Positions 11,988 to 16,854 of a stretch of 64,000 bases of DNA are shown here, piece by piece (within the stretch, counting starts at the first letter, position 1; the number at the start of each line of letters is the position of its first letter). The stretch lies in assembly GCA_963828735.1 (NCBI GenBank), contig CAWHFW010000002.1, positions 384,001-448,000 of the forward strand, in the 5' to 3' direction. Made by a program: the position numbers and the translations under genes. The notes under the pieces were generated by a model that saw nothing but the letters and a program-made list of their open reading frames with translations, did not search any database and was not told where the DNA came from. This DNA comes from an uncultured Gemmatimonadales bacterium. Its GTDB lineage: Bacteria; Gemmatimonadota; Gemmatimonadetes; Gemmatimonadales; GWC2-71-9.

Positions 11988-12491
11988 TCAGCCGCGGTAG
12001 TTGCCAAACTTGAGCTCGATGCCGAAATCCTGGCCCCGGAGGAAGGCGATAATGGCCTGGAGCTCGTCCCGTGAAGGGCTGGAGACCCGAATCTCATCGC
12101 CCTGGATCGTGGCCTGCGCCTTCTTGAAACCGCCGTCCTTGACGGCCTTGATGATCCGCTTGGCCGCGTCCTGCGGGATGCCCTGGGTCAGCTTGACCGT
12201 CCGGCGGACCGATTGGCCGGTGGCGGCGATCAGCTCCCCCACGTCCAGATTTTTCACGGGGACGCCGCGCTTGATCATGCGCCCCTGGAGAACGTCCACC
12301 AGTGCGTCCATTCGGAATTCGTCGTCGGCCGCGAGTCGAATCTCGGCCTTGGGGCGATCGAACTCGACGGTGCAGTGCGTGCCCTTGAAGTCATAGCGCT
12401 GGGCGATCTCCTTCAGCGCCTGATTGACGGCGTTGTCGACTTCCTGCAGGTCGGCGCCCGTCGATACGTCGAACGAAGGATTGCTGGCCAT
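11988..12491 (-). CDS. yajQ: YajQ family nucleotide / c-di-GMP-binding protein
   Basis: PSFDVS, EVDNAVNQA, RYDFKG, IQGDEIRV, NYR end. Confidence 0.93.
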   Translation of the reverse strand: MASNPSFDVSTGADLQEVDNAVNQALKEIAQRYDFKGTHCTVEFDRPKAEIRLAADDEFRMDALVDVLQGRMIKRGVPVKNLDVGELIAATGQSVRRTVKLTQGIPQDAAKRIIKAVKDGGFKKAQATIQGDEIRVSSPSRDELQAIIAFLRGQDFGIELKFGNYRG

Positions 12492-12563: not shown

Positions 12564-12592
12564 TTGACAACCCTTTCGGCCGTCACTAGTCT
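12564..12592 (+). promoter_or_regulatory. Sigma-70 promoter of met operon leader
   Basis: TTGACA (12564-12569), N17, TAGTCT (12587-12592); predicted TSS near 12599, just before the riboswitch. Confidence 0.75.
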
Positions 12593-12598
12593 CACGCT

Positions 12599-12679
12599 CA
12601 CGGCGGCCGACTTAAGGCCACTTGCTCCCGCCGGTGCCTCGGATGGTCCGGGACACGAACAAACAAGCTAAAGCGCCGG
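12599..12679 (+). ncRNA. SAM-II-like riboswitch (long-loop variant)
   Basis: P1 CGGCGG (12601-06)/CCGCCG (12628-33); CCGACUU loop; CUUG pairing with CAAG; 3' AAACAAGCUAAAG signature; inserted hairpin 12634-12656; upstream of metY/metX. Confidence 0.72.
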
Positions 12680-12746
12680 ATGCACGCCCTCCGAGCGCAC
12701 CTGGCCGGGGGGCGTCGTGTTTGGCCCCCAGACACACGAGAATTCC

Positions 12747-12845
12747 ATGCGGCCTCGCGCGAGCTGCTGTCGAATGATGCCCTACTGCCCCTGTCCGGGG
12801 TGGACGGCGTCATCGGCGCATGCGCGTGGAAGCGGCGGGGTCTAA
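12747..12845 (+). CDS. Putative 32-aa Cys/Met-rich leader peptide MRPRASCCRMMPYCPCPGWTASSAHARGSGGV
   Basis: Hand translation; 4 Cys and 2 Met within a 10-codon core; stop lies 20 nt before a terminator; upstream of Met biosynthesis genes. Confidence 0.65.
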   Translation: MRPRASCCRMMPYCPCPGWTASSAHARGSGGV

Positions 12846-15308
<2,463 letters not shown>

Positions 15309-15325
<17 letters not shown>

Positions 15326-15823
15326 GCTGGTTCACGCCAACGAGGCGTATGCCAGCACGTTTCGCCACGGCGAGCTGGCGCTCCCTCCGAGGCGCTACAT
15401 CGCCATTCTCACTGCATGGACGCCCGAATCCTTCCGTCGCGAGCCTTCGGCCTCGAGGAAGGCGACGCGCACGTCATCCGGAACGCCGGCGGGCGCGCCC
15501 GCGACGCCCTGCGCTCTCTCGTCATCTCTCAGCGTTTGCTCGGAACGCGTGAGGTCGCCATCATCCACCATACGGACTGCGGCATGCTGACGTTCAGCAA
15601 TCGGGATCTCCGGGAGAAAGTCCGCGAGGACCTGGACCAGGACACGGGCGAGTTCGACTTTCTACCGTTCAAGGACCTGGATGAGAGCGTGCGCGAGGAT
15701 ATCGAGTTCCTGCTCGCCACCCAGCTTCTCGACCCGGCGACGATCATCCGAGGATTCGTTTATGACGTCCGGACGGGACGGGCGCGCGAAGTGACACTCG
15801 AGACGGCGGACCACGCCCGGTGA
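15309..15823 (+). CDS. Beta-class carbonic anhydrase, clade D (Rv1284-like); one base missing near 15413
   Basis: MPVIDELVHAN...AILT then a frame change to CMDAR; IRNAGG, ISQRLLGTRE, HHTDCGML, GFVYDV. Confidence 0.85.
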
Positions 15824-16854
15824 CCTTGATCGGCGAAGGCCCAGCCACGACGGAGCTGGCCCTCGGCACGTTCGTCGGGGCCGACGGTCAACCACTCTCC
15901 GGCCTGCGGCTCCGATACCGGGTCGTGGGTAATCTCGACGCTGCGCGCGAGAACGGATGGATCCTGGTGTTCCACGCGCTCACGGGCAGCGCGGATGCCG
16001 AGGCCTGGTGGGGCCCTCTCATCGGCCCCGGTCGGGCGCTGGACACGTCACGGCACGCGCTCGTGTCGGCGAATCTGCTGGGGAGCTGCTACGGCTCGAC
16101 GGGACCTCAGGAGTGGGCGACCGAGCACGACGAGCCGTTTCCCGATCTCACCCCCGCCGATCTCGCACTCGCGCACGTGCCACTCCTGGAACACCTCGGC
16201 GTCGAGCGACTGGCGTTGGCCACGGGCGGCTCGCTGGGCGGCATGGTGGCACTTGAGTGGGGACGGCTGTCGAGCGTGCCGCTCGACCGGCTCGTGGTCT
16301 TCGCGGCCCCGGCGGCCACGTCGGCGCAGGCCATCGCGTGGAACACGGTCCAGCGCATGGCGATCGAGGCCGACCCCGCCTGGCGTCGCGGACGCTACCT
16401 CCCCGGCCACGGACCCACGGCGGGACTGGCCGCGGCGCGCGCGCTGGCGATGATCACCTATCGATCGGGGGTCGAATTCGACGCCCGCTTCGGGCGTATG
16501 TCCTCACGCACCGCGGGCAGATTTGACGTGGACCACTACCTCAGGCGGCAAGGGGACAAACTGGTGGCCCGGTTCGACGCGGCGAGCTACATCGCGCTCA
16601 TGCGCGCGATGGACCTGCACGACCTGGGAGACCTCGAGGCGGCCGCGCGGGCAACCGCCGCGCGCGTGAAGACGGTGGTCGGAGTGGGGGTGGATACCGA
16701 TCTGCTGTATTTACCGGGGGAAGTGCGGGCCTGGACGGACGCATACCGCGCGGCCGGCATGGACGCGCGGTATCGCGAAATCCGTTCGGCGTCGGGTCAC
16801 GACGCCTTCCTCATCGAGTGGGATCAGGTCGAGGGGATCCTCCGCGAGGCCTAG
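15820..16854 (+). CDS. metX: Homoserine O-acetyltransferase
   Basis: HALTG, NLLGSCYGSTGP, GGSLGGM, GHDAFL; GTG overlaps carbonic anhydrase stop. Confidence 0.9.
   Translation: MTLIGEGPATTELALGTFVGADGQPLSGLRLRYRVVGNLDAARENGWILVFHALTGSADAEAWWGPLIGPGRALDTSRHALVSANLLGSCYGSTGPQEWATEHDEPFPDLTPADLALAHVPLLEHLGVERLALATGGSLGGMVALEWGRLSSVPLDRLVVFAAPAATSAQAIAWNTVQRMAIEADPAWRRGRYLPGHGPTAGLAAARALAMITYRSGVEFDARFGRMSSRTAGRFDVDHYLRRQGDKLVARFDAASYIALMRAMDLHDLGDLEAAARATAARVKTVVGVGVDTDLLYLPGEVRAWTDAYRAAGMDARYREIRSASGHDAFLIEWDQVEGILREA

What the first reader, a model, noticed from the sequence alone, without database searches (positions are those of the whole stretch)
12599..12679. SAM-II-like riboswitch with inserted hairpin, in tandem with the attenuator
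Seen: starts at the predicted TSS; H-type pseudoknot elements are present (P1 CGGCGG/CCGCCG, CUUG/CAAG, GCUAAAG tail), with GACUU instead of the usual GAUUU and an extra hairpin at 12634-12656. Known: SAM-II usually sequesters the RBS of the adjacent gene and is mostly reported from Proteobacteria and Bacteroidota. Here it lies about 250 nt upstream of metY, ahead of a leader peptide. Inference: two-input control (SAM level plus charged tRNA-Met/Cys) of one terminator.
Basis: partly seen in the sequence, partly recalled or inferred. Interest (0 to 1): 0.75.

Follow-up and report, generated by a model that had tools for sequence, protein, structure and literature searches.

The report
SAM switch plus Cys/Met leader attenuator
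In front of a methionine-synthesis operon of Gemmatimonadales bacteria sits a form of SAM-sensing RNA switch that the standard RNA-family library misses, with its own stop signal, followed by a short cysteine- and methionine-rich reading frame with a second stop signal, so the operon is probably made only when SAM is low and these amino acids are scarce.

Summary
The element is real. Window 12601-12677 is a SAM-II-type pseudoknot with a hairpin (P3, 12634-12656) inserted after P1, where SAM-V has its P3. No Rfam model finds it. It is conserved in 84 distinct Gemmatimonadota loci, all before metY, metX or an aspartokinase gene, and aligns to Rfam-positive SAM-II of the same phylum plus the insertion.

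The aptamer has its own terminator T1 and an antiterminator with a compensatory pair (63 C-G, 19 A-U). A Cys/Met leader with terminator T2 follows.

Best model: two switches in series, expression only with low SAM and poorly charged tRNA-Cys/Met. In this genome's sub-lineage T1 has a weak U-tract and the aptamer carries GACUU, so the SAM step may be leaky. The same logic is published for SAM-I/T-box(Met) tandems. This scan noted SAM-II plus a Cys/Met leader before on another genome. Binding is untested.

The parts
12564..12592 (+). sigma70-type promoter (-35 at 12564-12569, 17-nt spacer, -10 at 12587-12592); start predicted near 12599-12600
   Evidence: Sequence; -35-like box 36-38 nt before P1 in 61 of 84 loci; not called by the strict scan; start site not measured
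12601..12633 (+). P1 helix (12601-12606 with 12628-12633) enclosing the third strand (12609-12615), the P2a 5' strand (12616-12618) and the P2 5' strand (12622-12625)
   Evidence: a U-A to C-G change against canonical SAM-II in 8 of 30 rows
12634..12656 (+). inserted hairpin P3, directly after P1, where SAM-V has its P3
   Evidence: Folds at -2 kcal/mol or better in 84 of 84 loci; all 5 counted pairs show two-sided changes among 67 sequences; SAM-V P3 position from PMC6061858
12657..12677 (+). A-rich linker and pseudoknot 3' strand: G12667, C12668, U12669 (predicted partner of the SAM adenine), A12670-A12672, P2a 3' strand 12675-12677
   Evidence: Aligns to the RF00521 consensus and to 18 Rfam-positive SAM-II; C-G to U-A change in L164. 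The tail was fixed by my search pattern in the 84-locus set
12673..12698 (+). antiterminator AT1 (12673-12680 with 12690-12698); uses the P2a 3' strand, so it excludes the pseudoknot
   Evidence: Predicted in 83 of 84 loci folded from the tail; compensatory pair C-G 63, A-U 19, unpaired 2. In the full window transcript an alternative P3-based pairing is 2.1 kcal/mol better
12684..12723 (+). terminator T1 (stem 12684-12715, -22.7 kcal/mol; interrupted U-tract 12716-12723)
   Evidence: at least 4 U in 8 nt in 63 of 84 loci; weak tail in this sub-lineage; not called by the strict scan
12747..12845 (+). 32-codon leader ORF with Cys7, Cys8, Met10, Met11, Cys14, Cys16
   Evidence: 6 Cys/Met in 12 codons, 0 of 1000 shuffles reach it; 72 of 73 loci p<=0.05; no Pfam match
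12797..12805 (+). attenuator region 2 (antiterminator strand for T2; otherwise paired with the control-codon region)
   Evidence: Conserved DNA motif read in different frames (40, 21 and 4 of 65 classified); 1:2 hairpin; ribosome walk
12866..12909 (+). terminator T2 (stem 12866-12900, tail 12901-12909)
   Evidence: Found in 70 of 71 leaders examined, all 70 with at least 4 U in 10 nt, median -25 kcal/mol; not called by the strict scan
12930..14258 (+). metY, O-acetylhomoserine sulfhydrylase, first regulated gene
   Evidence: TIGR01326 above cut-off
14255..15325 (+). aspartate kinase-like gene
   Evidence: TIGR00657 183.6 bits, below its cut-off of 208.7
15820..16854 (+). metX-like homoserine O-acetyltransferase
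   Evidence: TIGR01392 E 1.3e-93, below its cut-off

Best explanation
Two independent premature-termination switches lie in series in the 5' leader of the metY operon. (1) A SAM-II-derived aptamer with a SAM-V-like P3 folds as transcription starts. Without SAM, its 3' tail (12673-12680) pairs with the 5' arm of T1 and polymerase reads through. With SAM, the pseudoknot locks that tail, T1 forms and transcription stops near 12720. (2) Transcripts that pass T1 meet a classical leader-peptide attenuator. A ribosome stalled on Cys7-Cys14/Met10-Met11 frees region 2 to pair with the 5' arm of T2 (read-through); a ribosome that runs to the stop codon lets T2 form. The operon is fully expressed only when SAM is low and tRNA-Cys or tRNA-Met is poorly charged. 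Shown by sequence and comparison: the anatomy, conservation, covariation of P3 and AT1, Cys/Met enrichment. Inferred: SAM binding, termination, leader translation and stalling. In this genome's sub-lineage the SAM step may be weaker than in relatives.
For: Conserved in 84 distinct loci: 73 before metY, 9 before metX, 1 before an aspartokinase gene, 1 before a weakly matched metY; two divergent forms lie before metH-like ORFs (my reading of the translations). Aligns to Rfam-positive SAM-II of the phylum with a hairpin insertion and often the same 3' tail; 93% of cells paired, 0 of 500 shuffles as high, slid controls 32-51%. P3 covaries. AT1 in 83 of 84 with a compensatory pair at a position unpaired in the aptamer; T1 with U-tract in 63 of 84. 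T1 5' arm sequestered before its 3' arm is made in 79 of 82. Canonical SAM-II of the phylum also end in terminators (29 of 32). Leader: mean 5.8 Cys/Met per best 12 codons against 2.4 in shuffles. Predicted antitermination 0.64 with the ribosome on Cys/Met codons (487 positions) against 0.30 elsewhere (1857 positions) in 68 leaders; in the window it peaks at codons 7-14. The modules occur apart: leader without the aptamer in L005, L022, L023, aptamer plus T1 without leader before metX.
Against: No Rfam match at E<=10 in the window and none at E<=1 in 9 related variant loci. P1, P2 and P2a are invariant in the 84-locus set largely because my pattern fixed them; pseudoknot covariation rests on one locus for P2 and two canonical rows for P2a. 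The window has C at 12611 (GACUU in 2 of 84). Its long-P3 sub-lineage has a U-run of 4 or more after T1 in only 4 of 23 loci (38 of 59 in the rest) and third-strand deviations in 11 of 23 (2 of 59), related genomes, so not independent. In the full window transcript the AT1 pair has probability 0.01-0.02 at equilibrium; 66 of 82 loci reach 0.5. At equilibrium full-length T2 forms at every ribosome position, so switching must be kinetic. The leader's ribosome-binding site is weak (-3.0 kcal/mol; 41 of 69 reach that level). RNA contigs cannot show starts or stops.
Confidence: 0.72

Rival explanations
1. In this genome's sub-lineage the SAM module is decaying or leaky, and the Cys/Met attenuator does most of the regulating; the two-switch model holds only for relatives.
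For: C12611 replaces a U kept in most loci and is real (kept in an independent contig); weak T1 tails and core deviations cluster in the long-P3 group; AT1 is not favoured at equilibrium in the window; close relative L005 lacks the aptamer.
Against: P3, the T1 stem and AT1 complementarity are still intact; two Rfam-positive SAM-II (L191, L199) carry G at the same position; in SAM-V the equivalent U8 bonds to U47, not to SAM itself (PMC6061858); the T1 arm is still sequestered with probability 0.85.
Confidence: 0.14
2. One reading: both inputs act on one terminator (T2). SAM binding forms the T1 hairpin, which hides a ribosome-binding site on its 3' arm, so the leader is not translated and T2 forms by default.
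For: In the window a GTG at 12717 follows the G-rich T1 3' arm and opens the leader frame; 11 of 21 long-P3 loci have such an open in-frame start; the T1 U-tract is weak in this group.
Against: In-frame starts after T1 are near chance (31 of 77 overall, 12 of 27 in the long-P3 group); 67 of 69 leaders have a nearer start codon; aptamer plus T1 stand without a leader before metX; 63 of 84 T1 have a U-tract.
Confidence: 0.08
3. The aptamer variant senses a ligand other than SAM (for example SAH or another sulfur metabolite), or the leader is an arrest peptide that senses a small molecule and not tRNA charging.
For: Variant aptamers can change ligand (PMC10853860, search listing only); two divergent loci alter the tail next to the pocket (L165, L166).
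Against: The U and A positions that PMC6061858 names for adenine, sulfonium and amino-acid contacts have counterparts here; gene context is methionine synthesis; beyond Cys/Met content the peptide is not conserved and its downstream part is read in different frames.
Confidence: 0.05
4. The SAM-II resemblance is chance in a GC-rich leader.
For: No Rfam hit; nested folding z-score -0.51.
Against: Conservation in 84 loci, fixed distance to the promoter, covariation and alignment to canonical SAM-II; nested folding cannot score a pseudoknot.
Confidence: 0.01

Closest known systems
SAM-II riboswitch (Rfam RF00521 SAM_alpha; Corbino 2005, PMC1273637)
   Same: P1 plus pseudoknot, same core and tail motifs, start just after a promoter, terminator downstream, methionine genes; direct alignment to Gemmatimonadota members
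   Different: A covarying hairpin after P1 (linker 21-38 nt in all), different P1 sequence, one or two extra linker bases; not found by the model
SAM-V riboswitch (RF01826; Huang and Lilley 2018, PMC6061858)
   Same: Hairpin P3 directly after P1; same type of binding pocket; metY is a known target
   Different: SAM-V has a 4-bp P1, a 2-bp P2a over the Shine-Dalgarno and controls translation; this element has a 5-6-bp P1, a 3-bp G-C P2a, a terminator and SAM-II sequence; no RF01826 match
SAM-II long loops (RF01726; Weinberg 2010, PMC2864571)
   Same: A SAM-II variant missed by the standard model
   Different: Listed for Bacteroidetes and marine samples; does not match this locus at E<=10. I could not see its description (only a table row in the supplements)
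SAM-I / T box(Met) tandems before metX and metY (Sherlock 2022, PMC9481103)
   Same: Same logic (low SAM and uncharged tRNA-Met), same order in 7 of 9 published cases, same genes
   Different: Different parts: SAM-II-type aptamer and a translating ribosome on a Cys/Met leader instead of SAM-I and a T box; Cys is read as well
Classical leader-peptide attenuators (trp, his, thr; recalled) and mycobacterial polycysteine ORFs (bioRxiv 10.1101/834739, abstract; PMC1262725, passages)
   Same: Control codons, alternative 1:2, 2:3 and 3:4 pairings; cysteine sensing by ribosome stalling
   Different: Mixed Cys/Met codons; the mycobacterial Cys leaders control translation and lack intrinsic terminators; here a riboswitch stands upstream

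Membership tests
SAM-II (RF00521) | Score at or above the gathering threshold (36 bits) | tested here: not met
   No match at E<=10; 0 of 9 variant loci at E<=1
SAM-II (RF00521) | Single stem P1 plus pseudoknot P2 | tested here: met
   covariation in P2 rests on one locus because my pattern fixed these bases
SAM-II (RF00521) | No P3 hairpin (PMC6061858) | tested here: not met
   P3 folds in 84 of 84 loci and covaries
SAM-II (RF00521) | Conserved pocket bases (third-strand U's, UUGC, GCUAAA) | tested here: met
   GAUUU in 70 of 84 (not fixed by the pattern); the window has C at the first U (2 of 84)
SAM-II (RF00521) | 5' of methionine/SAM genes, just after a promoter, often with an intrinsic terminator | tested here: met
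   84 of 84 before metY, metX or an aspartokinase gene; T1 with U-tract in 63 of 84
SAM-II (RF00521) | Binds SAM and rejects SAH | not testable with these tools
   Needs probing or calorimetry
SAM-V (RF01826) | P3 stem-loop after P1 | tested here: met
SAM-V (RF01826) | Short P2a overlapping the Shine-Dalgarno of the next gene; translational control | tested here: not met
   257 nt to metY with two terminators between
SAM-V (RF01826) | Model match | tested here: not met
   No match at E<=10 in the genome
SAM-II long loops (RF01726) | Model match | tested here: not met
   Only the two canonical SAM-II score, below cut-off
Classical leader-peptide attenuator | Short ORF with clustered codons for the pathway's amino acids | tested here: met
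   72 of 73 loci p<=0.05 against shuffles
Classical leader-peptide attenuator | Intrinsic terminator and an exclusive antiterminator placed for stalling at the control codons | tested here: met
   T2 in 70 of 71; ribosome-walk folding, computational only
Classical leader-peptide attenuator | Leader is translated and stalling controls read-through | not testable with these tools
   Only assembled contigs were available

The most novel reading that the evidence does not exclude
In the window's sub-lineage T1 has stopped terminating and the SAM switch now gates translation of the Cys/Met leader, so that SAM, Met-tRNA and Cys-tRNA all converge on the single terminator T2: a riboswitch that controls an attenuator. 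It would have evolved from the two-terminator form seen in relatives.
Probability: 0.1. Interest if true: 0.8.

Novelty: new variant of a known kind. Interest (0 to 1): 0.58.

Why it matters
It adds a structural form between SAM-II and SAM-V (SAM-II sequence and terminator, SAM-V-like P3) that Rfam 15 misses in dozens of species, so such leaders are unannotated. It also points to a riboswitch in series with a ribosome-dependent Cys/Met attenuator, a second route to the logic published for SAM-I/T box(Met) tandems. I found no paper on this pairing or on SAM riboswitches in Gemmatimonadota in nine searches of the open-access library (listings only for most hits; subscription papers not covered). 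Natural forms with either module alone make the logic and its evolution directly testable.

Tried and rejected
Rfam scans of 1601 and 116 nt and genome searches with RF00521, RF01726 and RF01826 gave nothing at this place. Nested folding of the aptamer is uninformative (z -0.51). The strict promoter/terminator scan called neither the promoter nor T1 or T2. CUUG/CAAG pairing rejected (1 of 84). Translation control of the leader by T1 not supported by frame counts. Three non-Gemmatimonadota pattern hits (L038, L056, L086) were dropped as chance, and 10 duplicate loci were dropped before counting (97 to 84). L008 was left out of the leader-structure counts because the script picked another ORF; L048's T2 was not matched by my expression; L010 and L072 were skipped (tail tallies). 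A genome search for other leaders starting Met-Cys-Cys-Arg found 5 hits against 10 in the control, so no evidence for a wider regulon. RNA contigs (X15, X17) cover parts of the leader but cannot show starts, ends or levels. A literature search for the effect of the U-to-C change found no paper. The original SAM-V paper (PMC2764483) is not held. Look-ups of earlier findings by sequence and by relatives gave nothing.

Full report
OBSERVATION. A TTGACA-17-TAGTCT promoter lies at 12564-12592; the strict scan did not call it. The downstream genes are metY (12930, above the TIGR01326 cut-off), an aspartokinase-like gene and a metX-like gene (both below their cut-offs). Rfam gives no SAM match here at E<=10. 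RF00521 finds two other sites in this genome over its cut-off, but not this one; RF01726 and RF01826 do not find it either. My loose SAM-II pattern has one hit in the 4.78-Mb genome, this locus.

CONSERVATION. Of 20 close metY orthologues in the genus draw (own genome included), 17 carry the element, one (L005) lacks it and two are cut by contig ends. An exact-pattern scan of GTDB found 111 stretches; 80 were listed, 77 of them titled Gemmatimonadota or a subgroup. After dropping the three others and 10 duplicates, 84 distinct loci remain: 73 before metY, 9 before metX, 1 before an aspartokinase gene, 1 before a weakly matched metY. A -35-like box lies 36-38 nt before P1 in 61 of 84. A covariance model of the variant finds strong hits (E below 1e-11) in 20 of 151 genomes drawn from the phylum and hits at E<=1e-5 in 24 of 151 drawn from the family; its two most divergent strong hits lie before ORFs that I read as metH. 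L010, L148 and L201 come from unpublished genomes (G003, G106); they are single rows in the counts, G106 and G143 enter the tallies, and no conclusion depends on them.

WHAT THE APTAMER IS. The variant model aligns to Rfam-positive SAM-II with the P3 segment deleted. An alignment of 12 variant and 18 Rfam-positive sequences shows the same core and tail with a hairpin inserted after P1: 93% of cells paired, 0 of 500 shuffles as high, slid controls 32-51% (related sequences inflate this). P1 shows a U-A to C-G change in 8 rows; P2 shows C-G to U-A in one (L164). The pseudoknot is UUGC with GC-U-AA, leaving U12669 for the SAM adenine, plus GGC/GCC. P3 folds in 84 of 84 loci and all five counted pairs show two-sided changes (96 such cells in the whole structure against 37 in shuffles). 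In that set P1, P2 and P2a were largely fixed by my pattern, so their invariance is not evidence. Huang and Lilley (PMC6061858; passages and part 2 of 5 read) place the SAM-V P3 directly after P1, state that SAM-II lacks it, and state that most SAM-II are transcriptional. The element thus has SAM-II sequence and control with a SAM-V-like P3. It fails the SAM-II model and the no-P3 feature, so I call it SAM-II-derived, not a member of RF00521. The third strand is GAUUU in 70 of 84; the window's GACUU occurs in 2. The equivalent U8 of SAM-V bonds to U47, not to SAM, and two Rfam-positive SAM-II have G there, so the change may weaken binding without abolishing it; this is inference.

ITS OWN EXPRESSION PLATFORM. 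Hairpin T1 follows at 12684-12715 (-22.7 kcal/mol) with an interrupted U-tract. Across 84 loci T1 has at least 4 U in 8 nt in 63, and an antiterminator that uses the aptamer tail and the T1 5' arm is predicted in 83. One tail position that is unpaired in the aptamer pairs C-G in 63 loci and A-U in 19, unpaired in 2: a compensatory change in the antiterminator. In full transcripts up to the T1 loop this pairing reaches probability 0.5 in 66 of 82; in the window it is 0.02, because a P3-based alternative is 2.1 kcal/mol better, though that too sequesters the T1 arm (0.85; 79 of 82 loci at 0.4 or more). Canonical SAM-II are common in the phylum (101 of 151 genomes over cut-off), and 29 of the 32 examined end in a terminator-like hairpin. 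This agrees with PMC2258182, PMC1273637 and PMC9373788 (passages).

THE LEADER. The ORF 12747-12845 has 6 Cys/Met in 12 codons; 0 of 1000 shuffles reach this. In 73 loci the mean is 5.8 against 2.4, and 72 have p<=0.05. T2 (12866-12909) is found in 70 of 71 leaders, all with at least 4 U in 10 nt. A G-rich motif (12797-12805) that pairs with the T2 5' arm is read in different frames (40, 21, 4 of 65), so the constraint is on RNA. With a ribosome footprint held unpaired, predicted antitermination averages 0.64 at Cys/Met codons and 0.30 elsewhere in 68 leaders; in the window it is 0.53-0.84 at codons 7-14 and 0 at the stop. Full-length T2 wins at equilibrium at every position, so the switch must be kinetic, as in classical attenuators (recalled). 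The leader's ribosome-binding site is weak.

MECHANISM. Two switches in series: SAM closes T1; charged tRNA-Cys and tRNA-Met close T2. The modules also occur apart: leader only (L005, L022, L023) and aptamer plus T1 only before metX. The one-terminator reading would need T1 to hide the leader's start. A GTG at 12717 does open the leader frame, but in-frame starts after T1 are near chance (31 of 77; 12 of 27 in the long-P3 group) and 67 of 69 leaders have a nearer start. Against my model: the window's long-P3 group has a U-run of 4 or more after T1 in 4 of 23 loci (38 of 59 elsewhere) and third-strand deviations in 11 of 23 (2 of 59; related genomes, two loci unclassified). The SAM step may be leaky here, or be rewired. 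RNA contigs cover parts of the leader but cannot decide.

COMPARISON AND NOVELTY. Sherlock 2022 (PMC9481103, passages) lists nine SAM-I/T box(Met) tandems, those with SAM-I first described before metX and metY with the same logic; the passages searched had no mention of attenuators, leader peptides or Gemmatimonadota. Cysteine-sensing leaders are known in mycobacteria, acting on translation (bioRxiv 10.1101/834739, abstract; PMC1262725, passages). Tandem attenuators are known in Salmonella mgtCBR (PMC3641672, listing only). Nine searches showed no paper on this aptamer form or this pairing; subscription papers, the original SAM-V paper and the text on SAM-II long loops (only a table row seen) were not available and may bear on novelty. 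Verdict: a real, new variant of a known riboswitch kind in an undescribed but logically familiar tandem. Interest 0.58.

Noticed in passing
L021:1139-1260 (G057:C1): A second SAM-II-like pseudoknot with a longer P2 and an inserted hairpin, not matched by Rfam or by my model, followed by a terminator-like hairpin and then an RF00521-positive SAM-II (1327-1402) before metY: apparently a tandem SAM switch with no leader peptide.
   Followed up: partly
window 15306-15823: A beta-carbonic anhydrase gene (PF00484) between the aspartokinase-like gene and metX has a frame break near 15410: assembly error or pseudogene. It is absent from this place in L009.
   Followed up: partly
G000:C3:79140-79213 (-) and G000:C5:1246023-1246092 (+): Two canonical SAM-II over the Rfam cut-off in the same genome, both followed by terminator-like hairpins; the second precedes a metH-like ORF.
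   Followed up: partly
L165:1501-1597 (-), L166:1501-1579 (-): P3-bearing forms in two other families, before metH-like ORFs, with U in place of the G that should pair with the last base of UUGC.
   Followed up: no
L022 and L023, upstream of the metY match: Cys/Met leader ORF and a strong terminator with no SAM aptamer, in another family: the attenuator is older or more widespread than the tandem.
   Followed up: partly
L106, between T1 and metY: Aptamer and T1 are followed by a T2-like hairpin but no leader ORF: possibly a leader deletion.
   Followed up: no
window 11988-12491 (-): yajQ-family gene (NF003819 above cut-off) is transcribed divergently from the leader promoter.
   Followed up: no
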